Notes under the pieces: model-generated | What the model was told of the DNA's origin: nothing | Database searches by the model: none | Seen by the model: only the letters and a program-made list of their open reading frames with translations | Assembly (NCBI GenBank): GCA_041662285.1 | Contig: JBAZSS010000004.1 | Location: 1-52,464 of the forward strand | Origin: Parcubacteria group bacterium | Lineage (GTDB): Bacteria > Patescibacteriota > Minisyncoccia > Moranbacterales > UBA2206 | Length of the DNA stretch: 52,464 bases | Reading direction: 5' to 3' | Position numbers and translations under genes: made by a program | Shown here: piece after piece, positions 2,107 to 50,884 of the stretch | Layout: every line of letters begins with the position of its first letter | Numbering within the stretch: position 1 is the stretch's first letter

Positions 2107-2124
2107 AAAATTTTAGTCATCGCT

Positions 2125-2371
2125 GGTTCAGGCGTCTCGCCTGAATCACATAGTTCTGGGACTTACGCATTTGATTGCGGAAAAGATATTAACGCAGTCG
2201 CTAGGAAAATATTTTACTGCTAATTGATTCTTAATTACTGGCGAGTTATTACATTCTATAATTGCTTCCGCGACGAGCATATCTTGACGCAAATAAATAC
2301 GTAGGTCCTAAATTATTACAAGTAAAATTATTTTTCCAGAAACATTGCGGTTCAATCGAGACGATTGAACC
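2125..2371. mobile_element. composite MITE-like element bounded by hairpin ends (GGTTCAGGCG-TCT-CGCCTGAATC ... GGTTCAATCG-AGA-CGATTGAACC), enclosing a GACTTACG-family element
   Basis: Both ends reappear in reverse orientation at 29845..29948. No ORF. Lies between the NTase stop and the lgt start. Confidence 0.6.
2159..2308. repeat. GACTTACG-family long palindromic element, divergent copy C
   Basis: 5' arm GGACTTACGCATTTGATTGCGGAAAAGATAT pairs with 3' arm ATATCTTGACGCAAATAAATACGTAGGTCC. It shares the terminal motif and an internal TCTATAATTGCT block with copies A and B. Confidence 0.6.
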
Positions 2372-2388
2372 TGCACAGATAAAATTAT

Positions 2389-3369
2389 TCATTTAATTTT
2401 TTTCAAATTTTCTTGAAACTTTTCAAATATTTTCGGCCCTTGATTTTCAAAATCCGGCCAAAAAGCCAGCTCCGCTTCCGAGCAAATTATTATCCCTCCT
2501 TTTTTCTCCGTGAGCGGATTTTTTTTGATTTTTTCTGTTTGCCAAGTTTTAAGCTTTTTTTCAATCCAGCTTGATGAAAATAATTTCTCCAAAAAAAATC
2601 TCATTCCCCTGGAAAATTGACTATCATTAACGGTTTTTAGATTATTTTCCAAAAATGAAAAATTTGGCCGATAATTTTTTATCCACACATTTTTTTCCAG
2701 AAGTTTTCCAAACAAATCTCCGCCGTAAAGCGGAGTGATGAAAATATAATTATGCGAAGAATATAAATCTTGCACACAGACTTCCAACTTATCCGTTATG
2801 AAATGATTGAAGCAAATTCGATTAGATATTTTATCCTCATGCCTTCTTTCCCCCAAAAAATGAACCAACACTGTTGCCAAAAATCTGCCAGTGAAAATTT
2901 TCCCATGCTTGAAAATAATTAGCATGTCAATATCACTGCCACTGCGAGAATTTTTTGCTCCCACTCTTCCGGCCACCGCTATCATTTTCACAAACGGCAC
3001 GAATCTCAGCCAAAAAATAATTTTTCTGGCTTTTTTGAGCTTCATGTTAGAAATCTTGTTCCTTTCAATTCTTTTTTCAACTAAATTTTCTTTTCCTTTC
3101 AAAAAATAGAATCCGCGAAATTCGTCGACATGCTTTTTGATTTCTTCTTTTTCCAACTCATTGATAACTTCCGCCAAAGAATAATTCTTATTTTCTCTGT
3201 CTTGATTATTGTTCATTGTTCGTTGATCATTGATCAAGTATTTCCAAATTTCAAATGCTGTCATTGGATAATCCATGACATCATAGTAAGCAATCGTAGA
3301 TAGAATGTTTTTAGCTAATCCTTCCTGCATATTATTTATAAATACTTTCCCGTCCAACTTCTCTGGCAT
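2389..3369 (-). CDS. nucleotidyltransferase-domain protein (Pol-beta superfamily) with an N-terminal winged-helix-like region
   Basis: 326-aa ORF with an NTase motif GRVGAKNSRSGSDIDMLIIF (G-S...D-x-D). It overlaps the uvrA-paralog stop by 34 nt; an alternative start at 3330 gives a 5-nt gap. Confidence 0.7.
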   Translation of the reverse strand: MPEKLDGKVFINNMQEGLAKNILSTIAYYDVMDYPMTAFEIWKYLINDQRTMNNNQDRENKNYSLAEVINELEKEEIKKHVDEFRGFYFLKGKENLVEKRIERNKISNMKLKKARKIIFWLRFVPFVKMIAVAGRVGAKNSRSGSDIDMLIIFKHGKIFTGRFLATVLVHFLGERRHEDKISNRICFNHFITDKLEVCVQDLYSSHNYIFITPLYGGDLFGKLLEKNVWIKNYRPNFSFLENNLKTVNDSQFSRGMRFFLEKLFSSSWIEKKLKTWQTEKIKKNPLTEKKGGIIICSEAELAFWPDFENQGPKIFEKFQENLKKIK

Positions 3370-6125
3370 TTTTTTAGTCCCTCTGGAAGTCCAGCATAAA
3401 CTATTTCTCCTCCCCCGCTACCGCCCTCTGGACCAAGATCAATCACCCAGTCGGAATTTCTCACTACATCTGAATTATGCTCCACCACCAGTACTGAATT
3501 GCCCTTTTCCACTAGAGCATCCAAGACTTTCAAAAGTTTTTTGACATCCTCAAAGTGCAATCCAATAGTTGGCTCGTCTAGTATATATAATGTTTTTCCG
3601 GTGGATTTTCGTGAAAGTTCGGTGGCTACTTTTATCCTCTGCGCCTCTCCCCCAGACAAATTCGTGGCGCTTTGTCCAAGTCGCAAATATCCCAAGCCAA
3701 CTTTTTCCAGCGTTTGCAATTTTTCGGCAATGAGTGGGGATTTTTTGAAAAATCGCAGAGCATATGACACACTCATATCTAAAACTTGAGCAATGTTTAC
3801 TCCCTGATATTCAATATCAAGTGTTTTTTGATTGTAACGCGTCCCAAGACATGATTCGCATTTCACATACATATCCGGCATCAAATGCATTTCAATTTTT
3901 TTTGTGCCATCACCCTGACATTGTTCACATCGTCCACCTTTCATATTGAAACTAAAACGACTAGCGTCATAACCGCGATTTTTTGATTCCTCTGTGAGCG
4001 CAAAAATCTCTCGAATTTGAGAAAAAACTCCGGTGTACGTGGCCGCGTTAGATCTCGGCGTGCGTCCAATCGGCGATTGATCAACATTAATAACCTTATC
4101 AATAAAATTCAAGCCAGTTATTTTTCTGTGACGCCCAGGAATTTCATAGGCACGGAAAAAATGTTTTGAAAGTGCTACGGCTAAAATGTCCGACACTAAA
4201 GTTGATTTGCCTGACCCAGAAACTCCCGTAATAGCCACAAATCTTCCTAATGGAATTTCTGCGTCAATATTTTTCAAATTATGTTCAGTTGCACCCAAAA
4301 TTTTCAAATATTTTTCCGATTTTTCACGAGGTTTTTTCTTCTCGGAAACTTTTTCCCGCCCGCTCAAAAATCCGGCAGTTTTAGTTTTGGAAGCTTTGAG
4401 TTTTGCAATATCGCCTTGAAATATAACTTCTCCACCCTCTTCGCCCGCCCCGGGGCCCATATCAATTATCCAATCCGCTTTTTCAATTATTTCTTTGTCG
4501 TGCTCCACGACAATCACAGAATTTCCATTTTCTTTCAAAAATTGCATCGTTTGAATTAGTTTTTGCGTGTCTCGGTTATGCAGTCCGACTGAAGGTTCAT
4601 CTAGGACATAAATTATTCCAGAAAGCTTGGAACTGATTTGCGTCGCTAAACGAATTCTTTGTCCTTCTCCGCCAGAAATAGAATCCGCCGAGCGAAAAAG
4701 TTCCAAATATTCCAAACCAACATTTTTAAGCGCTTCGGCTTTTTCTTCCATTTCTTTTATGAGCGGTTCCATTATCTCTTTTTTCCCTTCTACCATTGGC
4801 TCCGCCATTAAATTTTTCAAAAAAATCAAAAAAGAATCCACATCCATCTTCACCGCGTCATCAATAGATTTTCCGGAAATTAAAACTGACAAATAGGCTT
4901 CTTTCAATTTTTTTCCCGCGCATTTTGAACAAACGGTTTTTCGCATATACTTTTCCGTTTCTTTTTTGAATATAAAAGAAGAAGATTCTTCATATTTCTT
5001 TTTGATCAAAGTTATTATTCCGGGAAAAGAAATCCCTCTGGATAAATCTTCATACCCGCCAAAAATTATCTCCATATTTTCGGGACTAATTTTTCCAATT
5101 GGTTTGTCGATAGAAAATCCCTTAATCTTTCCAATTTTTTCTAAAATATCTAAATAGCTTCCTTCAGTTCGCATTCGCCCACCCAATTTTGAAAGTGGCA
5201 AAACTGCCCCTTCGGAGAGTGACAAATTCTTATTGGGAACAACCAATTCTCTGTCAATCTCTTGCACCACGCCCAGGCCCGCACAAACTGGACAAGCGCC
5301 TTCTGGACTGTTGAAAGAAAAATTTTTCGGAGTAATTTCTGGAATTTCAAAAAAACAATTACTACAAACAAAATCGCGATTATAAATCCGACTTTCACCG
5401 TTGTCCAAAGCGATGGCCATAAAGCCTCGGCCTAATTTGAAAGCTGTTTCAATTGAATCCAGAATTCTCTCCTTGTCCGGTTTTTGACTTTTGAAAGTTA
5501 TTCGATCAACCACAATTTCCACATTGCCATTTAATATTTGCTCTTTGTTTGCCAACACCTCAGCAATCAAAACTGTTTTCCCATCAATTCTCGCTCTGGC
5601 ATATCCCAGTTGACTAATATTTTTCAAAATTTCTTCCATGCTTTTTCCGTCTTGCCGAATTCTGGCGAGAATTATAATTTGCATGTTGTCCGGCATTTCC
5701 AAAATTTCTTCAATTATTTCTTGATTTTTCTTTCTCGCCATTGGCAATCGACAATGTGGACAATAGGGCGTGCCAACCTTAGCAAACAGAATTCGCAGAT
5801 AATCATAAATTTCTGTCATTGTACCAACAGTTGAGCGTGGAGAACGACTGATGCTTTTTTGATCAATCGAAATCGTCGGACTTAAATTTTCAATTTTATC
5901 CGCGTCCGGCTTGGCGGAAATTTCCAAAAATTGTCGAGCATAACTCGACAAACTTTCCAGATACCGTCGATTGCCCTCAGCGTGAATGACATCAAAAGCC
6001 AAAGTTGATTTTCCACTGCCGGAAAGACCTGTGATCACCACCACCTTGTCCCGAGGAATTTCAATGCTAATGTTTTTCAAATTGTTGACTCTAGCGCCAA
6101 AGATTTTTATTTTATCTCGTTTCAT
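3336..6125 (-). CDS. excinuclease ABC subunit A paralog (full-length UvrA-family ABC ATPase)
   Basis: 929-aa ORF. Walker A motifs [12 protein letters not shown] and [13 protein letters not shown] signatures [12 protein letters not shown] and [12 protein letters not shown]. CxxC zinc modules (CPHC, CSNC, CPVC, CSKC, CEQC, CESC). Confidence 0.9.
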
Positions 6126-6135
6126 ATTTTTTTAA

Positions 6136-6274
6136 GACTTACACGTTTTTCTGAAAATATATTTATGTAGCCATGACAATGGCAGGATTAAAATCTATAA
6201 TTGCTATCTATAATCTTAGTTGAGTTTTTTTGTAATTTCAGCGAACAATATATTTGAAGAAAAGCGCGTAAGTC
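6136..6274. repeat. GACTTACG-family long palindromic element, copy A (~139 nt)
   Basis: About 85 percent identical to 21899..22038. The ~28-nt terminal arms are complementary. Starts 11 nt upstream of the uvrA-paralog start codon. Confidence 0.8.
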
Positions 6275-7988: not shown

Positions 7989-8017
7989 ATATTAGCACAT
8001 AATTCCATCGCCGTCAA
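7989..8017 (-). promoter_or_regulatory. candidate promoter of the abiEi-abiEii operon (TTGACG-17 nt-TAATAT on the minus strand)
   Basis: Lies 43-70 nt upstream of the abiEi ATG and overlaps the uvrC stop. A TTATCCACA box sits just upstream of the -35. Confidence 0.45.
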
Positions 8018-9393
8018 ACTAAATTATCCACACCCCCTAAAAATCCTTTACTCCTCAATTTTCTATGATACCCAATCGCAAAGCGGTGGGCTTCGTTTCT
8101 GATTTGCTCGATTATATTTTGGTCTAATTCTGGAACATTGCCGAATGTTCTCAGATCTAGTTTTTTTCGAGTTGGTCCTTTGGCCACTGCTAAAAGTGGA
8201 ATTTCCAGTTTATAATTTTTCAGAATTCTGCGAGCCATATTAAGATGACCCGCTCCCCCATCAAGCAAAATTAAATTGGGCAACGGCCAGCCTCGCGTCG
8301 ACGAGCGGTCGTCTCCGCGAGTCGAGGCGGGCCACTTATTTTCAAATCGTCGCATCAAAACTTCTCGCATTGCACCTACATCATCCGCCCCATCAACTGT
8401 TTTTATTTTGAATTTGCGATACCGAGCTTTATTTGGCCCAATTTCGCCATATGAATTATCAAACACCACCATTGATCCGACATTAAATTTCCCGGAAATA
8501 TTGGAAATGTCATACCCCTCAATCCTCAAAGTCCCCCTCTCCTTTATAAGGAGAGGGTCGGGGTGAGGTTTGTCCGAAATGAGAGCGATATCCCGAATAT
8601 GCTGCAACGCAAAAATTTTGTTTCTAATTTCCCCCGCCTTTTCAAATTCTTCTTTTTTCGAATACTCGGCCATTTCTTTTTTCAATTTAATTAGCAAGTT
8701 TTTCTTTTTCCCCTCCAAAATCATTCTGATCCCGCGAATATTTTTTTGGTAATCACTTTTCGAAATTGCGCCAGCATACGGCCCAGGACAAAGTCCCAGC
8801 TGAAAATCCAGACACCCCTTTTCCGAATTTTCTTTTTTATTGTGATAGGGAAATATTTTTCTCAATATTTTTAGCGCAATTTCGATTTGTTTTTTACTTG
8901 TATAAGGGCCGAAAATCTTAGTATTTTTTAATTCTTTCGCATTACCCCCTCTCCTTAATAAGGAGAGGGTTGGGGTGAGGTTCCCCAGTTCTGTTTTTCT
9001 GACAACCAATAATCGTGGGAAATCTTCTTTAGTTATAGCAACATAGGAAAATGATTTATCATCTTTCCCGTCAACATTATATTTCGACTGAAATTTTTTG
9101 ATCAATTCTTGTTCCAAAATATACGCCTCCAAAACCGTCTCAGTTTTTCTAATTTCAATATCCCTAACTTCCGAAATCATAATTTCAATCGGTCTTGAGG
9201 TTTGACCCCCCTCTCCTTTATAAGGAGAGGGGCTGGGGGTGAGGTGGCGGGGAGGAAAATATGATCCAACTCGGTCTCTTAAGCTTGTCGCCTTTCCAAC
9301 ATAAACAACTTCACCCATCTTATTTTTGAAAACATACACCCCTGGTGAATTGGGAAATTTAGCTATTTTATTTTTTAATTTTAGCAATTTCAT
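8014..9393 (-). CDS. uvrC: excinuclease ABC subunit C, compact form without a C-terminal (HhH)2 domain, carrying three repeat-derived in-frame insertions
   Basis: 459-aa ORF. GIY-YIG (PGVYVFKNKMGEVVYVGKATSLRDRVGSYF), UVR motif (EFEKAGEIRNKIFALQHI) and endonuclease domain (RIEGYDISNISG ... AHRFAIGYHRK). It ends right after the endonuclease domain. Confidence 0.85.
   Translation of the reverse strand: MKLLKLKNKIAKFPNSPGVYVFKNKMGEVVYVGKATSLRDRVGSYFPPRHLTPSPSPYKGEGGQTSRPIEIMISEVRDIEIRKTETVLEAYILEQELIKKFQSKYNVDGKDDKSFSYVAITKEDFPRLLVVRKTELGNLTPTLSLLRRGGNAKELKNTKIFGPYTSKKQIEIALKILRKIFPYHNKKENSEKGCLDFQLGLCPGPYAGAISKSDYQKNIRGIRMILEGKKKNLLIKLKKEMAEYSKKEEFEKAGEIRNKIFALQHIRDIALISDKPHPDPLLIKERGTLRIEGYDISNISGKFNVGSMVVFDNSYGEIGPNKARYRKFKIKTVDGADDVGAMREVLMRRFENKWPASTRGDDRSSTRGWPLPNLILLDGGAGHLNMARRILKNYKLEIPLLAVAKGPTRKKLDLRTFGNVPELDQNIIEQIRNEAHRFAIGYHRKLRSKGFLGGVDNLV
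8533..8570. repeat. GC-rich palindromic element P1 inside uvrC (in frame)
   Basis: CCCCCTCTCCTTTATAAGGAGAGGGTCGGGGTGAGGTT, translated on the minus strand as ...PHPDPLLIKERGT... Confidence 0.85.
8945..8982. repeat. GC-rich palindromic element P2 inside uvrC (in frame)
   Basis: CCCCCTCTCCTTAATAAGGAGAGGGTTGGGGTGAGGTT, translated as ...NLTPTLSLLRRGGN... Confidence 0.85.
9206..9247. repeat. GC-rich palindromic element P3 inside uvrC (in frame)
   Basis: CCCCCCTCTCCTTTATAAGGAGAGGGGCTGGGGGTGAGGTGG, translated as ...HLTPSPSPYKGEGGQ... Confidence 0.85.
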
Positions 9394-9431: not shown

Positions 9432-12317
9432 TCAGTGGTTCAGAATTTCTCTCAAATATTTCCCTGTCCAACTTTCTTTATGATATTTCGCCACTTCTTC
9501 CGGCGTACCAGAAACAATTAGTTTTCCCCCGCCGTCTCCGCCCTCCGGCCCAAGGTCAATTATCCAATCAGCTGTTTTTATCACATCCATATTATGCTCG
9601 ATGACCACCACGGTGTTGCCGGCGTCCACCAAACGATTCAAAACTTTCAAAAGTTTTTTGATATCATCAAAATGCAAGCCGGTAGTTGGTTCATCTAAAA
9701 TATAGAGTGTGTCGCCTGTGGCTCGACGAGAAAGCTCAGTGGCTAATTTTATCCTCTGCGCTTCTCCGCCAGAAAGTGTGGTGGCACTTTGCCCCAGCTG
9801 AATATACCCCAAGCCCACATCTTCCAAAACTGCTAGCTTATCATGAATTTCAGGAAAATTTTGAAAAAATTCTCGTGCATCCGTGATTGTCAAATCCAAC
9901 ACTTCCGCAATATTTTTCTCCTTATATTTCACTTTCAAAGTTTCACTATTATATCTTTTTCCATTACAAATATCGCACGGCAGATAGACATCCGGCATAA
10001 ATTGCATTTCGATTTTAAGTTGTCCGTCCCCTTGGCAATTGTCGCATCTTCCACCCTTAACATTAAACGAAAATCTCCCAGGAGAATATCCTTTGCTCTT
10101 AGCATCTCGCGTCTCGGCAAAAAGTTCGCGAATAGGTGTGAAAAGGCCGGTGTAGGTGGCCGGATTAGACCTCGGCGTTCTTCCAATTGGACTTTGATCA
10201 ATCATAATAATCTTGTTGATATAGTGCGCGCCAACAATTTCACTGTGCTTGCCAGGGCGATCCAATGTTCGCATAATGTCACGCGCCAAAGATTTATACA
10301 GCACATCTTCGACCAGGGTTGATTTTCCAGAGCCAGAAACTCCCGTCACGCAAGTCAAAACTTTCAAAGGAAATTCTACTGTGACGTTTTTGAGATTATG
10401 CTCACGCGCTCCGCGCACAATAATAGATTTTTTGTTTTTCATACTCCGCCGAGAAGTTGGGATTTCAATGGATAATTCTTTTCGAAGATACTTAGCCGTA
10501 AGTGATTTTTTATTCTTCAAAACTTCCTGCGGTGTTCCAGAAGCGATAATTTCTCCGCCGTGACGCCCCGCTCCTGGACCAATATCCACCAAGTAATCGG
10601 CTGCTAACATTGTTTCTTCGTCATGTTCAACCACAATCAAAGTATTGCCAACATCGCGCAGTCGCAAAAGTGTTTCCAAAAGTTTAGTGTTATCTCTAGC
10701 ATGAAGCCCGACTGATGGTTCATCTAGAATATAGAGTACGCCAACTAATTGCGAACCAATTTGCGAAGCCAAACGAATTCTCTGCGCTTCTCCACCCGCC
10801 AAAGTTGCCGCGCTTCGTCCCAGTGTCAGATATCCCAGTCCTACATTTTCCAAAAAACTCAAACGATTTTTAATTTCGGTGAGAATTCTGCCTGCAATCA
10901 ATTCTTCTTTTTGACTAAATTTCAATTCCTTGAAAAATTTCAACGCTTCAAAAATACTCACCGAAGAAATTTCTGAAATATTTTTGTTATGCACTGTCAC
11001 CAAAAGAACTTCTTTTTTATATCTTACACCAAGACACTCCGAGCAAGGATTTTGCGACATATATTTTTCCGTGTCTGCACGCACCGCATCTGATTGCGTT
11101 TTCTTATATTTATCTTGCAAATAGCCAACCGCTCCGCGCCAATTCATATTATATTTCCAAACCGCCCCTGTTTTTGAGCGTAGTGTCACTGGGATCTGCT
11201 CGGCATTTTCTTCTGAAATCATATCTTTCGCATCTTTGTCTCCAAAGAGCAAGATATTAAAATCTTCTTCCGACAAATCTCGCAAGCGCGTATTTTCTGA
11301 GATATGAAAATGATTTGTCACAGCGCGAAGGATTGTTCCTTGCCAATTATTTTTCTTATAACTCCACGGCATAATTGCCCCTTCAGCAATAGTCTTGTTT
11401 TTATCCGGTGCCACAAGTTGTGGATCGATTTCTTTTTTTGTCCCTAATCCTTCACAAGCTGGGCAAGCCCCATAGGGGCTATTGAAAGAAAACAATCGCG
11501 GTTCCAGTTCCGGAAATTCAATTTCATGAATCGGACAAGCCAAATTTTGATTGAAAACCATTTCATTAACCTTTGACTTTTGACCTTTGACTTTTGACCT
11601 TATTTTAACTAGTCCTTCTGACAATTTCAATGCTTTTTCTACTCCTTCAAAAATCCGCGAAATATTTTTGTCCGAAATTTCAACTTCATCCACCAAAATA
11701 TCAATGCTATGCTTTTTATATTTTTCCAGTTTCATCTGCTCTTTTATCTTGGCATTAAGTTCAATTTTTTTTCCATTGACATAGGCAAAAGAATATCCAC
11801 GTCGAAACATCTCTGAGAGCATAGTGCCGTATTCCCCTTTTCTTTGCCTGACAACTGGCGAAAGAATTTCAATTTGGCATTCTCCGCACATATCAATTAC
11901 CCTATCCACAATTTCATCTACCGAAAGCCTAGTGATTTCTCGATTACACTCCGGACAATGAGGAATTCCAATTTTAGCATAAAGCAACCGCAGATAATCC
12001 TGAATTTCCGTCACTGTGCCCACAGTGGAGCGTGGATTATGCGAAGCCGCTTTTTGATCAATCGAAATGGCCGGTGAAAGGCCTTCAATATAATCGACAT
12101 CCGGCTTGTCCATTTGACCCAAAAACTGCCGAGCATAAGAAGACAAACTTTCCAAATAGCGCCTTTGACCTTCCGCAAAAATTGTGTCAAAAGCCAGCGT
12201 GCTCTTGCCAGAACCGCTAATGCCCGTGAAAACTATGAATTTATTTCTCGGAAGCTTAAGATCAATATTTTTTAAATTATGTTCTCTTGCTCCTTTAATA
12301 ATAATCTCGTCTTGCAT
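9432..12317 (-). CDS. uvrA: excinuclease ABC subunit A
   Basis: 961-aa [71 protein letters not shown]. Two ABC signatures ([24 protein letters not shown]) and zinc modules. Confidence 0.95.
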   Translation of the reverse strand: MQDEIIIKGAREHNLKNIDLKLPRNKFIVFTGISGSGKSTLAFDTIFAEGQRRYLESLSSYARQFLGQMDKPDVDYIEGLSPAISIDQKAASHNPRSTVGTVTEIQDYLRLLYAKIGIPHCPECNREITRLSVDEIVDRVIDMCGECQIEILSPVVRQRKGEYGTMLSEMFRRGYSFAYVNGKKIELNAKIKEQMKLEKYKKHSIDILVDEVEISDKNISRIFEGVEKALKLSEGLVKIRSKVKGQKSKVNEMVFNQNLACPIHEIEFPELEPRLFSFNSPYGACPACEGLGTKKEIDPQLVAPDKNKTIAEGAIMPWSYKKNNWQGTILRAVTNHFHISENTRLRDLSEEDFNILLFGDKDAKDMISEENAEQIPVTLRSKTGAVWKYNMNWRGAVGYLQDKYKKTQSDAVRADTEKYMSQNPCSECLGVRYKKEVLLVTVHNKNISEISSVSIFEALKFFKELKFSQKEELIAGRILTEIKNRLSFLENVGLGYLTLGRSAATLAGGEAQRIRLASQIGSQLVGVLYILDEPSVGLHARDNTKLLETLLRLRDVGNTLIVVEHDEETMLAADYLVDIGPGAGRHGGEIIASGTPQEVLKNKKSLTAKYLRKELSIEIPTSRRSMKNKKSIIVRGAREHNLKNVTVEFPLKVLTCVTGVSGSGKSTLVEDVLYKSLARDIMRTLDRPGKHSEIVGAHYINKIIMIDQSPIGRTPRSNPATYTGLFTPIRELFAETRDAKSKGYSPGRFSFNVKGGRCDNCQGDGQLKIEMQFMPDVYLPCDICNGKRYNSETLKVKYKEKNIAEVLDLTITDAREFFQNFPEIHDKLAVLEDVGLGYIQLGQSATTLSGGEAQRIKLATELSRRATGDTLYILDEPTTGLHFDDIKKLLKVLNRLVDAGNTVVVIEHNMDVIKTADWIIDLGPEGGDGGGKLIVSGTPEEVAKYHKESWTGKYLREILNH
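11570..11601. repeat. 14-nt tandem repeat (2.3 copies) inside uvrA, in frame
   Basis: CCTTTGACTTTTGACCTTTGACTTTTGACCTT on the + strand, encoding SKVKGQKSKV. Confidence 0.8.
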
Positions 12318-12337
12318 ATTTTTTATAATTTTATCTT

Positions 12338-12373
12338 ATTCGTACATTCGTACAGATTCGTAATTCGTAAGGG
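12338..12373. repeat. F1 (ATTCGTA-word) repeat, single arm
   Basis: ATTCGTACATTCGTACAGATTCGTAATTCGTAAGGG between lexA and uvrA. No complementary arm nearby. Confidence 0.7.
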
Positions 12374-12467
12374 ACACAAAAACCTGCCCCCTTTTGAGGT
12401 ACTTAATATTAATTTTTATCTTTCAATCATATTACACTTTAGCGCGAATATATGTTTCAATCAAGCT

Positions 12468-19788: not shown

Positions 19789-19796
19789 TTTATAAA

Positions 19797-19908
19797 CCTT
19801 ACGAATTACGAATTCTTACGAATGTACTAATGTGAGTTAAAAATAATTTTTATATTTTATTAAATTATTCGTATTTCGTACATTCGTATTGATTCGTAAT
19901 TCGTAAGG
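19797..19908. repeat. F1 long hairpin repeat (CCTTACGAATTACGAAT ... ATTCGTAATTCGTAAGG)
   Basis: About 112 nt and about 85 percent identical to 50228..50340. Arms pair over about 28 bp. The right end overlaps the SD (AAGGAG) of the PGI gene. Confidence 0.85.
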
Positions 19909-19923
19909 AGAAACAAAAAATTT

Positions 19924-21767: not shown

Positions 21768-21898
21768 AGTATGATAATATAAACTTGCTTTAGAATTTCT
21801 TTTCTATATTTCTTGATAACTTGCATCCTAAAACTTTTAACGAGAAAATATTTTTCAGCCTTTTTTTAGATTTCTAAAACTTTATTTTATCATATTAA

Positions 21899-22038
21899 GA
21901 CTTACGTATTTTCCTGAAAATCTATTTACATAGCCAGTGCAATGGCAGGATTGCAACTACGTAACTTCTATCTATAATCTTAGTTTTGTTTTTTTGTAAT
22001 TTCAGCGAACAATAGATTTGAAGGGAAATGCGTAAGTC
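21899..22038. repeat. GACTTACG-family long palindromic element, copy B (~140 nt)
   Basis: Same order and orientation on the + strand as copy A. Ends 58 nt upstream of the rnj ATG, downstream of a consensus promoter. Confidence 0.8.
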
Positions 22039-28866: not shown

Positions 28867-30114
28867 ATGCAAACAATTTCTCTAAACCACAGAAGAAATG
28901 TCTCAATTTTGGCTCTCGGCGCTGAATCGGCTGGGAATTTTTCGGTTTTTCGTGATGGAAGAATATTTTCCTCGGATGATTTTGGGGATCTTTTAGAAGA
29001 AGCTAATTGGATAAAATATCAAGCATCCGTTTTGAAATATTTGAAGGATAATAAAATCAAACCGCAAATTATTCTAACCGATCTTCATCCACTATACAAA
29101 ACTACTCTTTGGGGAGAAGAACTCGCCAAAAAATCTAGCGCTAAATTTGTTCAAGTCCAACATCACCACGCCCACATATTTTCTGCTGTTGGAGACAAAA
29201 TTTTGCATAATACTTCCTACTTACTACCTCCTACTTTTTATTGCATCGCTATGGATGGCACTGGTTTTGGAGTAGATGAAAAAATTTGGGGAGGAGAAGC
29301 TTTTAAAGTAGAAAGTAGAAAGAATAAAGTAGCAAGCGTAAAACGAATTGGGCATTTGGAAAATCAGGTTATGGTTAGTGGGGATTTAGCCGTGCGAGAG
29401 CCAGCCAGAATGTTAATTGGAGTGTTAAGTAAACTGTTAAGTAACAAAGAAATATATCCTTTCATCAAAAAATATTATACCAAAAACGAATTTGAACTTA
29501 TATATAATCAGCTTCAACAAAATTTCAACTGCCTAGAAACTTCCAGCACTGGAAGAGTTTTAGACGCCATTTCGCTTTTATTAGGTTTTTGTGGGAATGT
29601 TAGAAAATATAAACACGAACCTATCGATAAACTCGAAAAAAATTCAGATACTCCGTATTCCGATTTAAAACCGAAAATAATTTTTGATAAAAAAGAAAAA
29701 AAATACATTCTTTTAACCACGCCCCTTTTTAAATATTTAATAAAAAATATTAACAAAGACAAGAAGAGACTTGCCACCACAGCTCAGATCTATATCGCCG
29801 AAGGGTTATATGAAATAATAAAACTAAAATGCTATAATAATGCAGGTTCAATCGTCCCGATTGAACCGCAAAGTTCTGATAAACTTAAATTTAAAAATTC
29901 AAATAAGATTTTGCCAGAAATAAAAGGTTTAGGCAAGATGCCTGAACCTGCCTATGCTCAGTATGATAATATTTTCATTTCTGGTGGCATTGCTAATAAT
30001 AAAATAATTTCAAATTATTTTATTTCCAAAGGTGCTTATGCTTCCAAGATAATTCCCCGTGGCGACGCCGGACTTTCTTTTGGGCAAATCGTTTATTATC
30101 TTTTGGGAAAATAA
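28867..30114 (+). CDS. hypF: HypF-like carbamoyltransferase, Kae1-like C-terminal domain only
   Basis: Start taken at MQTISLN (Met35 of the 449-aa ORF). ILALGAESAGNFSV, QHHHAH, and a C-terminal FISGGIANNKII...PRGDAGLSFGQ match the HypF C-terminal domain. Acylphosphatase, Zn-finger and YrdC-like parts are absent. Confidence 0.65.
   Translation: MQTISLNHRRNVSILALGAESAGNFSVFRDGRIFSSDDFGDLLEEANWIKYQASVLKYLKDNKIKPQIILTDLHPLYKTTLWGEELAKKSSAKFVQVQHHHAHIFSAVGDKILHNTSYLLPPTFYCIAMDGTGFGVDEKIWGGEAFKVESRKNKVASVKRIGHLENQVMVSGDLAVREPARMLIGVLSKLLSNKEIYPFIKKYYTKNEFELIYNQLQQNFNCLETSSTGRVLDAISLLLGFCGNVRKYKHEPIDKLEKNSDTPYSDLKPKIIFDKKEKKYILLTTPLFKYLIKNINKDKKRLATTAQIYIAEGLYEIIKLKCYNNAGSIVPIEPQSSDKLKFKNSNKILPEIKGLGKMPEPAYAQYDNIFISGGIANNKIISNYFISKGAYASKIIPRGDAGLSFGQIVYYLLGK
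29845..29948. repeat. short copy of the hairpin-ended (GGTTCA..CG) element, inserted in frame in hypF
   Basis: GGTTCAATCG-TCC-CGATTGAACC and GGTTTAGGCA-AGA-TGCCTGAACC match the two ends of 2125..2371 in reverse orientation. Translated as ...AGSIVPIEPQSS...KGLGKMPEPA... Confidence 0.65.
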
Positions 30115-42216: not shown

Positions 42217-42222
42217 AGAGTT

Positions 42223-42307
42223 CTTTACTAATTACTAATCAAATACTAATATACTAATTTATAAAAAATTATTAGTATATTCGTACAAAATTCGTAATTC
42301 GTAAAAA
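42223..42307. repeat. F1 hairpin repeat (ACTAAT/ATTCGTA variant), adk-map spacer
   Basis: CTTTACTAATTACTAATCAAATACTAATATACTAAT ... ATTAGTATATTCGTACAAAATTCGTAATTCGTAAAAA. Confidence 0.75.
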
Positions 42308-44819: not shown

Positions 44820-44826
44820 ATTAGTT

Positions 44827-44904
44827 CACAAAATTATACAGAATTTTACAGAATGACACGGATTTTTTTCTGTGTTGCTCTGTCGTTTTCTGTATCTTTC
44901 TGTT
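44827..44904. repeat. F2 hairpin repeat, S5-L15 spacer (where L30 would normally be)
   Basis: CACAAAATTATACAGAATTTTACAGAATGACACGGA-T7-CTGTGTTGCTCTGTCGTTTTCTGTATCTTTCTGTT. Confidence 0.85.
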
Positions 44905-46398: not shown

Positions 46399-46420
46399 TT
46401 TTTTACTGCTTTATTAAATT

Positions 46421-46462
46421 ATTCGTAATTCGTACATTCGTATTAATTCGTAATTTGTAAGG
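46421..46462. repeat. F1 repeat, single arm, S8-L6 spacer
   Basis: ATTCGTAATTCGTACATTCGTATTAATTCGTAATTTGTAAGG abuts the S8 stop codon. Confidence 0.7.
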
Positions 46463-46463
46463 A

Positions 46464-46856
46464 CTACCAAACTTCACAAATATATTCTCCGCCTAATCCA
46501 AGCTTTCTTGACTCTGCTCCCGTCATCACACCTTTGGAGGTAGAGATAATAGCTGTGCCGTAATTATTCTTAACATTCTTAATATCTTTGTTCTTGATAT
46601 AGATTCTTTGTCCTGATTTAGAAATTTTCTTGATTCCCTTAATAGCAGGAATTTTTCTGGTTGGAGTAATTTGATAATATTTCAAAATTATCTTTATCAA
46701 ACCTTCTGCATCCATAGAAGTTTTTTCTACAAAGCCTTCTTTTTCTAAAATCCCAGCTAAGGCAATTCTAAGTTTAGATGGTTTTATAGCCACTTCTTTA
46801 TGCCCAGCCATCTGAGCATTTCTTATTTTAGTTAACATTTCAGAAATTTTGTCCAT
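46464..46856 (-). CDS. rpsH: 30S ribosomal protein S8
   Basis: 130-aa ORF. ISEMLTKIRNAQMAGHKEV ... GGEYICEVW. Confidence 0.95.
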   Translation of the reverse strand: MDKISEMLTKIRNAQMAGHKEVAIKPSKLRIALAGILEKEGFVEKTSMDAEGLIKIILKYYQITPTRKIPAIKGIKKISKSGQRIYIKNKDIKNVKNNYGTAIISTSKGVMTGAESRKLGLGGEYICEVW

Positions 46857-47057: not shown

Positions 47058-47068
47058 AATTTAATCTT

Positions 47069-47146
47069 ACATAATTACACAGAATTCTTACAGAACGACA
47101 CGGAATTTTTTCTGTATTGTTCTGTAATCTTCTGTGTTTTTCTGTT
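47069..47146. repeat. F2 hairpin repeat, L5-S14 spacer
   Basis: ACATAATTACACAGAATTCTTACAGAACGACACGGAA-TTTT-TTCTGTATTGTTCTGTAATCTTCTGTGTTTTTCTGTT. Confidence 0.85.
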
Positions 47147-47690: not shown

Positions 47691-47698
47691 GTTCTTTT

Positions 47699-47806
47699 CT
47701 TTACTAATTACTAATCTTATACAAATATACTAATTTACGAATGAGATTCCTAATTTGATTTTATTCGTACATTCGTATATTTGTACTGATTCGTAATTCG
47801 TAATGG
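47699..47806. repeat. F1 hairpin repeat, L24-L5 spacer
   Basis: Left arm of ACTAAT words, right arm ATTCGTACATTCGTATATTTGTACTGATTCGTAATTCGTAATGG. Fills the whole spacer. Confidence 0.8.
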
Positions 47807-48112
47807 TTATATTTCTCCTTGGCATTTTTTACAAACTCTTTGCTTTTTTCCAGCTACTATCTTATATCCTATTCTGGTAGGTTTAGCACATTTTGGGCAA
47901 ATCAGCATAACATTGGAAATCTGAACTCTTCTTGGCACTTCAATTCTTTGTCCTTTTTCTCCTTGCTTTCTTGGTTTAGAATGTTTTTTCATTATATTCA
48001 AACCCTCTACGACAACCTTGCCGTCTTGAGGAACCGCCTGCAAAACCTTCCCGGTTTTTCCAGAGTCTTTACCTGCAAGCATTTTTACTAAATCATTTTT
48101 CTTTATCTTCAT
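47807..48112 (-). CDS. rplX: 50S ribosomal protein L24 with a C-terminal CxxC...CxxC zinc ribbon
   Basis: 101-aa ORF. KOW motif KKNDLVKMLAGKDSGKTGKV, then CPKC...CKKC. Confidence 0.93.
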   Translation of the reverse strand: MKIKKNDLVKMLAGKDSGKTGKVLQAVPQDGKVVVEGLNIMKKHSKPRKQGEKGQRIEVPRRVQISNVMLICPKCAKPTRIGYKIVAGKKQRVCKKCQGEI

Positions 48113-48120
48113 AATAATAT

Positions 48121-48200
48121 CACAGAATTACACAGAATTCTTACAGAACGACACGGAATTTTTTCTGTGTTATTCTGTTATATTCTGTATCTTTTTGTGT
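48121..48200. repeat. F2 hairpin repeat, L14-L24 spacer
   Basis: CACAGAATTACACAGAATTCTTACAGAACGACACGGAA-TTTT-TTCTGTGTTATTCTGTTATATTCTGTATCTTTTTGTG. About 90 percent identical to 47069..47146. Confidence 0.85.
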
Positions 48201-49014: not shown

Positions 49015-49425
49015 TTATTCTTTTTCAACAAATTTAGTCTTTACATTTAATTTATAAGCTGCGAGTCGCATCGCCTCTTTTGCAATTTCTCTTTTCACGC
49101 CATCCATTTCAAATAACATCGTTCCTGGTTTTACTACTGCCACAAAATGATCAACCGCACCTTTTCCCTTACCCATCGGAGTTTCATCACCTTTTTTCGT
49201 CATTGGCTTGTCAGGAAAAATTCTGATCCAAATTTTTCCTCCGCGTTGAACATATCTAGTCATCGCACGTCTGGAAGCTTCTATCTGACGAGCTGTAACT
49301 AAACTAGCTCCCATTGATTTCAAACCAAAACTGCCAAAGCTAACTTCATTACCACGATGAGCTGTTCCGCGGATTTTCCCTCCACGCTGGATCTTTCTGT
49401 GTTTTACTTTTTTTGGCATCAACAT
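49015..49425 (-). CDS. rplP: 50S ribosomal protein L16
   Basis: 136-aa [23 protein letters not shown] ... RMGKGKG-type loop. Confidence 0.96.
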
Positions 49426-49432
49426 GAATTTT

Positions 49433-49546
49433 CTTTACGAATTACTAATCAATTACTAATATACTAATTCTATTTAAACTATTTTATTCTTTATGGATTA
49501 CTGTTCGTACATTAGTATATTCGTACGAAATTAGTAATTCGTAAAG
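49433..49546. repeat. F1 hairpin repeat, S3-L16 spacer
   Basis: CTTTACGAATTACTAAT... pairs perfectly with ...ATTAGTAATTCGTAAAG (17 bp), and further inward. Confidence 0.85.
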
Positions 49547-49547
49547 A

Positions 49548-50192
49548 CTACTCAAAAACTTCACCTTTATACAACCAAACTTTTACTCCCAATGTTCCGT
49601 ATGTCGTATAGGCCGTTGCTCTGGAAAAATCAATGTCGCATCGCATAGTATGAAGTGGTAATGTTCCTTTGGCTGACCACTCTCTACGACTCATTTCAGC
49701 ACCACCTAATCTCCCAGACATTTCAATTTTCACTCCTTTAATATTTTTATTCTTCATCACTTGTTCCAAAGCTGATTTCATAGCTTTTCGAAAAGGTAAT
49801 CTTTTTTCCAATTGATCAGCAATGTTTTGTGCCATGATTGCAGCGCTTTCTTCCATATTCTTAACTTCCTGAATATCTACTTTCAAATTCATATTCTTAT
49901 TGCCTTTGAAAAAATTCTTTTGGATATAACTTTTAATATCTTCAATGCCACTGCCGCCACGTCCGATTAGCACTCCTGGTCTGGCAGTTTTAATGATCAC
50001 TCGAATCATTTTGGCCGATCTTTCTATTTCCACTTCAGATATAAAAGCCGCTTTCCATTTTTTGGAAACTCCACCTCTAATTTCAATGTCTTGCTTGAGG
50101 TTTTTTGTATATTCTCTTTTGCTAAACCATTTAGATTTCCAGTCTTGAGTTATCCCCATGCGGAATCCAATTGGATTTACTTTATGTCCCAT
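49548..50192 (-). CDS. rpsC: 30S ribosomal protein S3
   Basis: 214-aa ORF. MGHKVNPIGFRMGITQDWKSKWF and the KH domain. Confidence 0.96.
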   Translation of the reverse strand: MGHKVNPIGFRMGITQDWKSKWFSKREYTKNLKQDIEIRGGVSKKWKAAFISEVEIERSAKMIRVIIKTARPGVLIGRGGSGIEDIKSYIQKNFFKGNKNMNLKVDIQEVKNMEESAAIMAQNIADQLEKRLPFRKAMKSALEQVMKNKNIKGVKIEMSGRLGGAEMSRREWSAKGTLPLHTMRCDIDFSRATAYTTYGTLGVKVWLYKGEVFE

Positions 50193-50227
50193 GCTAATTT
50201 AATTTAATATGCTTTAGTTAGCTATTT

Positions 50228-50340
50228 CCTTACGAATTACGAATTTTTACGAATGTACTAATGTGAACTGAATAATCTTTTGCTGTTTTATTTAATTATT
50301 CGTAATTCGTATATTCGTACCGATTCGTAATTCGTAAGGG
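50228..50340. repeat. F1 long hairpin repeat, L22-S3 spacer
   Basis: Near-duplicate of 19797..19908 in the same + strand orientation, although the flanking genes run the other way. Confidence 0.85.
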
Positions 50341-50344
50341 TTAC

Positions 50345-50884
50345 TTACATTGACTTTCTTTGAAATATTTTTTTTGCCCAACCCTTATTAGGAGTTTCTT
50401 TTTTGGCACGTTCTTCACCACCCTTTTTATCTAAATCCTTGTTGGATTTTTCTTGTGTTTCTTTTTGCTCTTTCTCTTCTTTCTTTCTATCTTTTTCTCT
50501 TTTTTTCATTTCCGCTTCCATTTCTTCCTTAGTTTTTCGGTTTTTTCCTTCCACTCTTTCTTCTAGTATAATTTCTATTTTCGATGTTCTTTTCAGAATT
50601 TCACCGGCTCGTCCGAAAGCTTTCGGCATCCAGCGTTTCATTGTTGGTCCTGCTCCGATTCTAGCTTCATATACATACAAATTATTCTTATCTAAACCAA
50701 AATTATTTTCCGCATTAGCAATTGCACTTAAAAGCAATTTTTTCATGTGTGGGCTGGTTCTTTTAACATGCGCTTCAAGCTGATCGAGTGCTTCCAAGAC
50801 ATCCAGACCCTTTATCAAATCAGCCACTAATTTTGACTTTCTTGGAGCGATTCTCAAATTGTTTAGTTTTGCATTAACTTTCAT
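50345..50884 (-). CDS. rplV: 50S ribosomal protein L22 with a ~65-aa Lys/Glu-rich C-terminal extension
   Basis: 179-aa ORF. NLRIAPRKSKLVADLIKG...GPTMKRWMPKAFGRA, then KEEMEAEMKKREKDRKKEEKEQKE... Confidence 0.93.
   Translation of the reverse strand: MKVNAKLNNLRIAPRKSKLVADLIKGLDVLEALDQLEAHVKRTSPHMKKLLLSAIANAENNFGLDKNNLYVYEARIGAGPTMKRWMPKAFGRAGEILKRTSKIEIILEERVEGKNRKTKEEMEAEMKKREKDRKKEEKEQKETQEKSNKDLDKKGGEERAKKETPNKGWAKKIFQRKSM

What the first reader, a model, noticed from the sequence alone, without database searches (positions are those of the whole stretch)
2125..2371. A hairpin-ended element (GGTTCA..CG) occurs once around another repeat and once in frame inside hypF
The intergenic copy (2125..2371):
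- It is bounded by GGTTCAGGCG-TCT-CGCCTGAATC and GGTTCAATCG-AGA-CGATTGAACC.
- These are two related 10-bp-stem hairpins in inverted orientation.

The hypF copy (29845..29948):
- The same two ends, plus about 10 flanking nt each (TGCAGGTTCAATCGTC[T/C]CGATTGAACCGCAA; ...CCAGAA...AGGC[G/A]AGA[C/T]GCCTGAACC), recur here in the opposite orientation.
- In the second hairpin GCG/CGC has become GCA/TGC, a compensatory change. The only difference in the first hairpin is in its loop.

How the copies differ:
- The intergenic copy encloses GACTTACG copy C, so the repeats are nested.
- The hypF copy has only about 58 nt of AT-rich filler. It keeps the reading frame open, adding roughly 35-40 residues just before the conserved SGG motif.

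This is a mobile or recombinogenic structure that can be tolerated, or possibly removed, within a coding region.
Basis: seen in the sequence. Interest (0 to 1): 0.65.

Follow-up and report, generated by a model that had tools for sequence, protein, structure and literature searches.

The report
REP-type palindromic mobile element inside hypF
The two hairpin-ended stretches are copies of a small non-coding mobile element of the REP/REPIN kind, one between genes and one sitting in frame inside a hydrogenase-maturation gene, where it adds a floppy 37-residue loop. This kind of element is known, but it is reported here in a poorly studied bacterial group.

Summary
Both hairpins occur exactly twice in the window, with 0 expected by chance. 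The two loci share complete elements, not just their ends.

**What the element is**
- Its basic size is about 94 nt.
- It is an inverted doublet of two related palindromes. Each arm reads GCAG-GTTCA[AT|GG]CG-TCY-CG[AT|CC]TGAAC-C NNNN.TTTCTGG.
- There is no target-site duplication.
- The window comes from a Candidatus Moranbacteria (Patescibacteria/CPR) genome.

**Link to a transposase**
- The identical 23-nt hairpin occurs at 66 loci in several phyla.
- In Cloacimonadota it directly flanks a REP-associated tyrosine transposase (RAYT) gene.
- In CPR genomes, homologous RAYT genes are flanked by REPs with the same layout.
- I therefore read the element as a REPIN/BIME-like REP heterodimer. No RAYT lies in this window.

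**The hypF copy**
- It spans 29842-29951/2 and adds 37 residues in a predicted disordered loop.
- Some orthologues lack it. One orthologue with 76% protein identity shares it, with decaying hairpins and mostly non-synonymous changes. It is an old, tolerated relic.
- Nothing suggests it is removed from the mRNA or protein.

**Wider pattern and verdict**
- Five of 12 distinct CPR loci are in frame inside genes, including miaB-like, uvrB and a Wzy_C (O-antigen-ligase-like) gene. This resembles the Rickettsia palindromic elements.
- Verdict: a new member of a known kind, of moderate interest.

The parts
2122..2374 (-). Complete intergenic element, read on the minus strand: GCA-hairpin A...hairpin B-AGC. 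It is 253 nt, or 103 nt without the nested insert. It lies between the stop of ORF 2389-3369 and the start of lgt (1240-2106), both on the minus strand.
   Evidence: Orthologous copy in Moranbacteria UBA4824 (L012), alignment.
2349..2371 (-). Hairpin A (left REP): GGTTCAATCG-TCT-CGATTGAACC on the minus strand. It has a 10-bp perfect stem.
   Evidence: ssDNA fold -12.5 kcal/mol, z -5.9.
2336..2348 (-). Left-arm tail (minus strand GCAATGTTTCTGG), conserved as NNNN.TTTCTGG in all arms.
2125..2147 (-). Hairpin B (right REP): GGTTCAGGCG-TCT-CGCCTGAATC on the plus strand, with one G.T wobble.
2159..2308 (.). Nested 150-nt element of a second repeat family (GACTTACG-type inverted termini), inserted in the spacer of the REP doublet.
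   Evidence: Relatives at about 6133-6272 and about 21896-22036.
29842..29951 (+). Complete element inside the HypF-like gene. It is 110 nt; the coding insert is 111 nt (29842-29952), which is 37 codons.
29845..29867 (+). Hairpin A of the genic copy: GGTTCAATCG-TCC-CGATTGAACC.
29926..29948 (+). Hairpin B of the genic copy: GGTTTAGGCA-AGA-TGCCTGAACC. It has the compensated G-C to A-T change plus one T.G wobble.
28867..30114 (+). Host gene: a 415-aa HypF-like protein with only the Kae1-like domains. The insert is residues 326-362, between helix 299-322 and strand 369-371.

Best explanation
Both loci hold copies of a REPIN/BIME-like non-autonomous element.

**Anatomy**
- The element consists of two related REP palindromes in inverted orientation around a short spacer.
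- Each arm reads GCAG-GTTCA[AT or GG]CG-TCY-CG[AT or CC]TGAAC-C, then four variable bases and TTTCTGG.

**Mechanism (inferred)**
- Such elements are thought to be moved in trans by a REP-associated tyrosine transposase (RAYT, a Y1 HUH enzyme).
- The enzyme recognises the hairpin, plus a short unpaired tag at its foot, on single-stranded DNA. It cuts and rejoins without making a target duplication.
- This mechanism comes from the family. It is not shown here.

**What is shown here**
- The anatomy of the element.
- Structure-preserving covariation in the hairpin.
- The absence of target duplications.
- A physical link between the identical hairpin and RAYT genes in Cloacimonadota, and between REPs of the same layout and RAYT genes in CPR genomes.

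**The two copies in this window**
- The hypF copy is an old insertion that happened to keep the frame open. Two of the three frames of the hairpin have no stop codon.
- It is translated as a disordered surface loop and is now decaying neutrally.
- The intergenic copy was later hit by a second small element.
For: 1. **The repeat is real.** The hairpins are non-random. The whole element aligns with 94-95-nt elements elsewhere. Twelve distinct loci in CPR genomes share the architecture.
2. **The structure is under selection.** Across 20 arms, 97.5% of cells are paired and 4 of 10 pairs show changes on both sides (A-T/G-C, T-A/G-C, G-C/A-T). No shuffle out of 500 reached the observed value, and slid controls give 18-55% pairing. 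ssDNA folds have z-scores of -7 to -8.6.
3. **The exact hairpin is widespread.** The exact 23-nt hairpin A is at 66 loci in the genome collection. By my arithmetic about 0.5 would be expected for 20 fixed bases in 596 Gb.
4. **Link to RAYT in Cloacimonadota.**
   - In L006 and L018 the hairpin sits 40-50 nt upstream of a 165-aa ORF.
   - L006 matches NCBIfam NF047646, REP-associated tyrosine transposase, at 91.4 bits against a cutoff of 80. The IS200 model scores only 17.2 against a cutoff of 55. Both ORFs match Pfam Y1_Tnp.
   - L006 reads hairpin1-hairpin2-RAYT-hairpin3-hairpin4. Loci such as L063 have the same four hairpins without the gene.
5. **Link to RAYT in CPR.**
   - RAYTs 50-55% identical to the Cloacimonadota enzyme occur in Patescibacteria.
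   - Their genes are flanked by REPs of the same layout. L070 has GCAGGTTCAATTTTGTAAATTGAACC-CCTGTTTG and GGTTCAGATTACAAATCTGAACC-TGCAGG. L090 has GCAGGTTCAAGTTTGTAACTTGAACC and GGTTCGGGCTACAAACCCGAACC-TGC.
6. **No target duplication.** None is seen at any of the 12 loci.
7. **hypF is an insertion.**
   - Orthologues without it exist.
   - The orthologue L072 has the same insert with 10 of 111 nt changed, in 7 non-synonymous and 2 synonymous codons, and with mismatches in both stems.
   - AlphaFold2 gives pLDDT below 50 and no secondary structure for residues 325-365 only.
8. **Other in-frame copies.** These are in a MiaB-like gene (between UPF0004 and Radical_SAM), in UvrB (just before UvrB_inter), in a Wzy_C protein and in another membrane protein.
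Against: - No RAYT gene is present in the 52-kb window or in any fetched Moranbacteria locus. A cognate enzyme in this genome is therefore unproven.
- Copy number looks low: 2 in 52 kb here, and 3 exact hairpins in one Moranbacteria MAG.
- Both window copies are shared with relatives (L012, L072), so there is no sign of recent movement.
- The canonical GTAG or CGTC tag of described REP superfamilies is absent. GCAG, or GTTG in Cloacimonadota, stands in its place.
- 42% of the CPR copies are intragenic, whereas REPs are extragenic by definition.
- Transposition chemistry is inferred from E. coli TnpA-REP and IS608 work. It was not tested here.
Confidence: 0.8

Rival explanations
1. It is a classical MITE. 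That would be a deletion derivative of a DDE-type insertion sequence, moved by cut-and-paste through its roughly 40-bp terminal inverted repeats.
For: The two arms are inverted repeats of about 40 nt. The element is small, dispersed and has no coding capacity.
Against: - No target-site duplication is seen at 12 loci.
- Each terminal repeat is itself a palindrome whose stem covaries. That is expected for hairpin recognition on single strands, not for duplex terminal repeats.
- The only transposase genes found next to these hairpins are RAYTs.
Confidence: 0.07
2. The hairpins are host regulatory structures, such as mRNA-stabilising or attenuating stem-loops or protein-binding sites, kept for function rather than spread as selfish DNA.
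For: - The stems are conserved with compensatory changes.
- The intergenic copy lies between two co-directional genes and would be transcribed.
- Such roles are known for E. coli REPs (background knowledge).
Against: - The elements occur in either orientation relative to genes and inside unrelated coding regions.
- There is no T-tract.
- Rfam gives no match.
- The genic copies accumulate stem mismatches.
- The same hairpin is shared by unrelated phyla together with a transposase.
Confidence: 0.06
3. The hypF segment is not translated into the mature protein. It would be removed as an intron or intein, or bypassed by the ribosome.
For: It has stable hairpins at both ends and lies in a coding sequence, which is a formal analogy to translational bypass elements.
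Against: - The frame is open through the element in two orthologues that differ at 10 positions.
- The segment is 37 aa, with no splicing domain and no intron-like RNA family match.
- Four other genes carry the element in frame in other reading frames and orientations.
Confidence: 0.02
4. The two window loci resemble each other through ectopic recombination or gene conversion, not transposition.
For: The two window copies share the otherwise variable tetranucleotide GCAA after hairpin A.
Against: The family has at least 12 loci in different genes and genomes. The right arm of the hypF copy is closest to that of L010, not to the intergenic copy.
Confidence: 0.03

Closest known systems
REP / BIME / REPIN elements with their RAYT transposases (E. 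coli, Pseudomonas; Nunvar 2010, Bertels & Rainey 2011 PMC3116915, Ton-Hoang 2012)
   Same: - The units are short palindromes with an unpaired tag at the foot.
- They are arranged as inverted doublets around a short spacer.
- The two partners differ in their stems, as with Y/Z REPs and the heterodimers described in PMC3733652.
- There is no target duplication.
- The same palindromes flank a single small Y1 transposase gene that matches the NCBIfam RAYT equivalog.
   Different: - The tag is GCAG or GTTG rather than GTAG.
- A conserved tail (NNNN GTTTC) follows the hairpin.
- The hosts are CPR, Cloacimonadota, Brocadiaceae and others, not Proteobacteria.
- An identical REP and RAYTs 50-85% identical are shared across phyla, which points to horizontal spread. 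REPIN-RAYT systems are described as vertically inherited.
- Nearly half of the CPR copies are intragenic.
Rickettsia palindromic elements (RPE; Ogata et al. 2000, from background knowledge; CGTC-tagged REPs in PMC3733652)
   Same: They are palindromic elements of about 100-150 nt, inserted in frame in conserved protein genes of a reduced genome. They are translated as extra surface segments and decay with time.
   Different: The sequence family is unrelated. No dedicated transposase is known for RPE/CGTC repeats (PMC3733652), whereas this family is tied to RAYT genes.
IS200/IS605 insertion sequences and their palindrome-associated derivatives (PATEs)
   Same: They use a Y1 HUH transposase that recognises subterminal hairpins on single-stranded DNA, and they make no target duplication.
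   Different: - In IS200/IS605 the left and right hairpins are in direct orientation, and insertion is next to a specific tetranucleotide.
- Here the arms are inverted and the left flanks show no consensus.
- The associated protein scores far below the IS200 model cutoff: 17.2 against 55 bits.

Membership tests
REPIN-RAYT system (REP doublet plus cognate RAYT) | Short (20-40 nt) palindromic unit repeated at many unrelated loci | tested here: met
   The 23-nt hairpin is at 66 genome loci and 10 metagenome loci. Twelve distinct CPR doublets were found.
REPIN-RAYT system (REP doublet plus cognate RAYT) | Two REPs in inverted orientation separated by a short spacer, able to fold as a long hairpin or as two small hairpins | tested here: met
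   The arms align as inverted repeats. Both fold types were obtained: L079 as a long hairpin, L010 and the hypF copy as two hairpins.
REPIN-RAYT system (REP doublet plus cognate RAYT) | A RAYT gene flanked by the same REP sequences | tested here: met
   This is met in other genomes. The exact hairpin A flanks RAYTs in Cloacimonadota loci L006 and L018. REPs of the same layout flank CPR RAYTs in L069, L070, L090 and L091.
REPIN-RAYT system (REP doublet plus cognate RAYT) | A cognate RAYT in the same genome as the copies studied | not testable with these tools
   None is in the 52-kb window or in the Moranbacteria loci fetched. The rest of the genome is not available.
REPIN-RAYT system (REP doublet plus cognate RAYT) | No target-site duplication | tested here: met
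   The flanks of 12 loci show no repeat.
REPIN-RAYT system (REP doublet plus cognate RAYT) | Predominantly extragenic location | tested here: not met
   Five of 12 CPR loci lie in frame inside genes. By contrast, most of the hairpins lie outside any open reading frame of 200 aa or more.
GTAG- or CGTC-tagged REP superfamilies (Di Nocera 2013, PMC3733652) | Unpaired GTAG or CGTC tetranucleotide at one end of the palindrome | tested here: not met
   The tag is GCAG in 16 of 20 arms, with GCTG, GCAA and GCGG as variants. It is GTTG in Cloacimonadota. CGTC occurs only at the hairpin apex.
Rickettsia palindromic elements | In-frame insertion of a palindromic element in conserved protein genes, absent from orthologues | tested here: met
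   This shows the element works like an RPE. Sequence kinship to RPE families was not tested.
DDE-type MITE | Terminal inverted repeats bounded by a target-site duplication | tested here: not met
   There is no duplication at any of the 12 loci.
IS200/IS605 (TnpA) elements | Associated transposase matches the IS200 TnpA model; end hairpins are in direct orientation | tested here: not met
   NF033573 scores 17.2 bits against a cutoff of 55. The arms are inverted.
Intein / self-splicing intron | Splicing domain or catalytic RNA fold | tested here: not met
   Pfam finds only HypF_C domains. Rfam finds nothing. The insert is only 37 aa.

The most novel reading that the evidence does not exclude
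One REP-RAYT lineage has spread horizontally among at least five unrelated, mostly anaerobic and uncultivated phyla: Patescibacteria, Cloacimonadota, Brocadiaceae, Nitrospirota and Thermodesulfobacteriota.

- It is marked by the GNNG tag, a GGTTCA-type stem and a GTTTC tail.
- The 23-nt REP is identical across phyla, and the transposases are 50-85% identical.
- This runs contrary to the view that REPIN-RAYT systems are inherited only vertically.
- In the gene-dense CPR genomes these doublets land in frame in core genes (hypF-like, miaB-like, uvrB, and alongside other palindromes uvrC) so often that they are a main source of the lineage-specific protein insertions seen in CPR bacteria.
Probability: 0.4. 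Interest if true: 0.55.

Novelty: new member of a known kind. Interest (0 to 1): 0.38.

Why it matters
- **Annotation.** It explains a class of odd in-frame insertions in CPR proteins as selfish DNA rather than functional domains. This matters for annotation, alignment and structure prediction of these genomes.
- **Host range and spread.** It extends REP/RAYT systems to phyla where I found no description of them. It also gives a concrete case, an identical REP across phyla, for testing whether such systems can move horizontally.
- **Limits.** It opens no new mechanism. In-frame REPs and RPEs are already documented (PMC3733652).

Tried and rejected
- **Rfam.** I searched the whole window at gathering threshold and 2000-2500 at E<=1. 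Nothing matched.
- **RAYT in the window.** tblastn with 7 RAYTs gave only noise, E>0.1.
- **RAYT near Moran-type doublets.** All 120 RAYT homologues were compared with all fetched loci. I then spent the metagenome scan on GCAGGTTCAATCGNNNCGATTGAACC. It returned 10 loci and no RAYT.
- **Paceibacterota RAYT loci L085 and L088.** They are flanked by different REP stems (GCGGGAACTGGTTTG..., GCGGGAGCAGGTTTAAACCTGC...). They share only the tag and tail layout, so they are not direct partners.
- **Target-site duplication or a target consensus on the left flank.** None was found.
- **Extra nucleotide-level constraint on the hypF insert.** Identity to L072 is 91% in the insert against 83% for the rest of the gene, but the downstream flank is 87%, so this is inconclusive.
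- **Was the REPIN inserted into, or did it replace, an older 'CHPERS...AQND' repeat at the same site?** The flanks KLKC/AQ.DN are similar, but Q-N-D/E is also present in empty-site orthologues, so this cannot be decided.
- **L039 (Thiomicrorhabdus).** The hit lies inside a 1276-aa ORF and lacks the tag, tail and loop features. I treat it as a chance match.
- **Not run.** I did not run a search of the representative protein library with the 37-aa peptide, because a roughly 9-residue conserved core cannot reach significance.

Full report
**1.

Reading the two regions shows the hairpins exactly as described.
- GGTTCAATCG-NNN-CGATTGAACC occurs only at 2349-2371 and 29845-29867, even with 3 mismatches allowed. 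None appeared in 100 dinucleotide-preserving shuffles.
- The second hairpin occurs at 2125-2147 and, with three changes, at 29926-29948.
- An alignment program reproduces the similarity of both ends.
- The GCG/CGC to GCA/TGC change keeps the pair.
- The intergenic copy contains a nested 150-nt element at 2159-2308 with its own inverted termini. These are related to elements at about 6133-6272 and about 21896-22036.

**2. Host and gene**

Homologues of the gene at 28867-30114 are from Candidatus Moranbacteria and other Patescibacteria.
- The protein has 415 aa and only the Kae1-like HypF C-terminal domains (Pfam HypF_C, HypF_C_2).
- In the syntenic relative L072 the orthologous gene lies next to hypE, hypD and hypC.
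- The Pfam match stops at residue 354 of the 449-codon ORF, which is close to where the insert begins.

**3. It is an insertion, and an old one**

In a 30-sequence alignment, orthologues of 368-371 aa have nothing at this site (for example P0005...IINK|KQNEIFIAGG). Others have different repeat-derived peptides at the same site (CRPERSPYSDEVEGS..., CHPE..MPKQVRHD). Only P0003 shares this insert.

P0003 has 76% protein identity to the query and comes from GCA_030654225.1 (locus L072). Its copy compares with the window copy as follows.
- 10 of 111 nt differ, in 7 non-synonymous and 2 synonymous codons.
- Each lineage has acquired stem mismatches.

The peptide is therefore not under protein-level constraint, and the hairpins are no longer maintained in the gene.

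An AlphaFold2 model (mean pLDDT 75) has pLDDT below 50 and no secondary structure at residues 325-365. That is the insert (326-362), lying between a long helix and the strand that carries the IFISGG motif.

**4. The copies are whole elements**

Twelve distinct loci in CPR genomes carry the same architecture.
- The arm reads GCA-hairpin A (loop TCY)-NNNN.TTTCTGG, then the spacer, then CCAGAAA.NNNN-hairpin B (loop RGA or similar)-TGC.
- The basic size is 94-95 nt.
- The hypF copy aligns end to end with these basic elements and differs by 15-16 extra spacer bases.
- The intergenic copy is 103 nt plus the nested element.
- No locus has a target-site duplication.

**5. The hairpins are under structural selection**

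- Across 20 arms, 97.5% of cells pair and 4 of 10 pairs change on both sides.
- No shuffle out of 500 reaches the observed values, and slid controls drop to 18-55% pairing.
- The left and right palindromes differ at two adjacent stem positions (AT against GG), each compensated within its own hairpin. They form a heterodimer, as in many REP dimers (PMC3733652).
- Single-strand DNA folds give z-scores of -7 to -8.6 and either two local hairpins or one long hairpin.

**6. Link to a transposase**

The exact 23-nt hairpin A is found at 66 loci of the species-representative genome collection. By my arithmetic about 0.5 would be expected by chance. The hosts are mostly Cloacimonadota, with Moranbacteria, Paceibacterota, Saccharibacteria, Gracilibacteria and Brocadiaceae as well.

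In Cloacimonadota:
- In L006 and L018 the hairpin lies just upstream of a 165-aa ORF.
- L006 matches the NCBIfam equivalog 'REP-associated tyrosine transposase' (NF047646) at 91.4 bits against a cutoff of 80. It scores only 17.2 against the cutoff of 55 for IS200. Both ORFs match Pfam Y1_Tnp.
- L006 reads GTT-hairpin1-hairpin2-[RAYT]-hairpin3-hairpin4-AAC. Many other loci, such as L063, carry the same four hairpins without the gene. This is the classical relation between an autonomous unit and its non-autonomous derivatives.

In CPR:
- Homologous RAYTs, 50-55% identical, exist in Patescibacteria.
- Their genes are flanked by REPs of the same layout, including the A-like/B-like pairing. L070 has GCAGGTTCAAT...ATTGAACC-CCTGTTTG and GGTTCAGA...TCTGAACC-TGCAGG. 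L090 has GCAGGTTCAAG...CTTGAACC and GGTTCGGG...CCCGAACC-TGC. L069 and L091 have GTT-GGTTCAA....

The window itself has no RAYT, and neither do the Moranbacteria loci I could fetch.

**7. In-frame copies are common in CPR**

Five of the 12 distinct loci lie inside long ORFs with the frame kept:
- the HypF-like gene;
- a MiaB-like gene, between the UPF0004 and Radical_SAM domains (L007);
- UvrB, just before the UvrB_inter domain (L055);
- a Wzy_C membrane protein (L025);
- another membrane protein (L038).

Two of the three frames of the hairpin lack stop codons on either strand. They give GSI(V/E)(S/T)IEP or VQSSRLN.

**8. Interpretation**

The best reading is a REPIN/BIME-like REP heterodimer of a RAYT lineage.
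- Shown here: the anatomy, the covariation, the lack of target duplication, the RAYT association in other genomes, the insertion status and the neutral decay of the genic copy.
- Inferred from E. coli TnpA-REP and IS200/IS605 work: the RAYT recognises the hairpin plus its tag on single-stranded DNA and mobilises the doublet.
- Not established: that a RAYT exists in this genome, or that the copies are still mobile.

**9. Comparison with what is known**

- REPs inside coding regions, REP heterodimers and the Rickettsia palindromic elements are described (PMC3733652; RPE from background knowledge).
- REPIN-RAYT systems are well characterised in Proteobacteria (PMC3116915, PMC3337134, PMC5581495).
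- Full-text searches found no paper that joins RAYT or REPIN with CPR/Patescibacteria or Cloacimonadota.
- The present family lacks the GTAG and CGTC tags, so it is not a member of those two superfamilies. It works like them.
- RAYTs 60-85% identical are shared between Patescibacteria, Brocadiaceae, Nitrospirota and Thermodesulfobacteriota. Together with the identical REP this suggests horizontal spread, which would be unusual for REPIN-RAYT systems. I did not test this phylogenetically.

**10. Verdict**

The feature is real and was correctly observed. It is not removed from the gene product. It is a new member of a known kind, and interest is moderate.

Noticed in passing
window 8014-9393 (-), repeats at 8533-8570, 8945-8982, 9207-9244: The UvrC gene (Pfam GIY-YIG, UVR, UvrC_RNaseH) carries three in-frame copies of another palindrome, CCCCCTCTCCTT(T/A)ATAAGGAGAGGG..GGGGTGAGG. 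They are translated as PPRHLTPSPSPYKGEGGQ, NLTPTLSLLRRGGN and KPHPDPLLIKERGT.
   Followed up: partly
window ~6133-6272, ~21896-22036, and nested 2159-2308: A second small inverted-repeat element family has termini (A/G)GACTTAC(A/G)(C/T).../...GCGTAAGTC. The two free copies are 80-86% alike. The nested copy shares only the termini.
   Followed up: partly
window 12320-12381, 19791-19917, 46402-46471, 47753-47814, 50227-50348; also 42221-42305, 47697-47741, 49425-49554; and 44820-44903, 47062-47145, 48115-48198: Intergenic arrays of octamers (ATTCGTAA/ATTCGTAC; TACTAAT variants; (A/T)ACAGAA variants) occur just upstream of genes, often as inverted pairs of arrays. In Cloacimonadota locus L035 a second, divergent RAYT is flanked by CCTTACGAAC-TGGAAA-GTTCGTAAGG hairpins that resemble the TTCGTAAGG ends of these arrays. 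Whether the two are related is untested.
   Followed up: no
HypF-like orthologues, alignment A2: Orthologues carry further repeat-derived in-frame inserts at five or more other positions: SSSPFGRGCRVLATGEGKGE, LPADEAGR, GGSASGGK, PPLIKGGIEG and CHPELVSGS..MPKQVRHD. Three different repeat families occupy the same loop that holds the insert studied here.
   Followed up: partly
window 3336-6125 (-) and 9432-12317 (-): Two UvrA paralogues (Pfam UvrA_inter, UvrA_DNA-bind, ABC_tran) lie 3 kb apart, on either side of a three-gene block that includes uvrC. They contain DNA segments about 72% similar (D1).
   Followed up: partly
RAYT homologues: RAYT proteins 60-85% identical are shared by Patescibacteria, Brocadiaceae/Kuenenia/Jettenia, Nitrospirota and Thermodesulfobacteriota MAGs. 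This identity is far higher than expected for vertical descent between phyla.
   Followed up: no
L013 882-1007 (-), Saccharibacteria: A remnant of a RAYT C-terminus (about 30 aa, 63% identical to P0207) lies between REP-like hairpins GGTTCAAGTCAGAGACCTGAAC. It looks like a decayed RAYT locus.
   Followed up: partly
L037 3434-3714 (Cloacimonadota): The four-hairpin REP unit is repeated in tandem with a 129-nt period. Three exact copies of hairpin A are spaced 129 nt apart.
   Followed up: no
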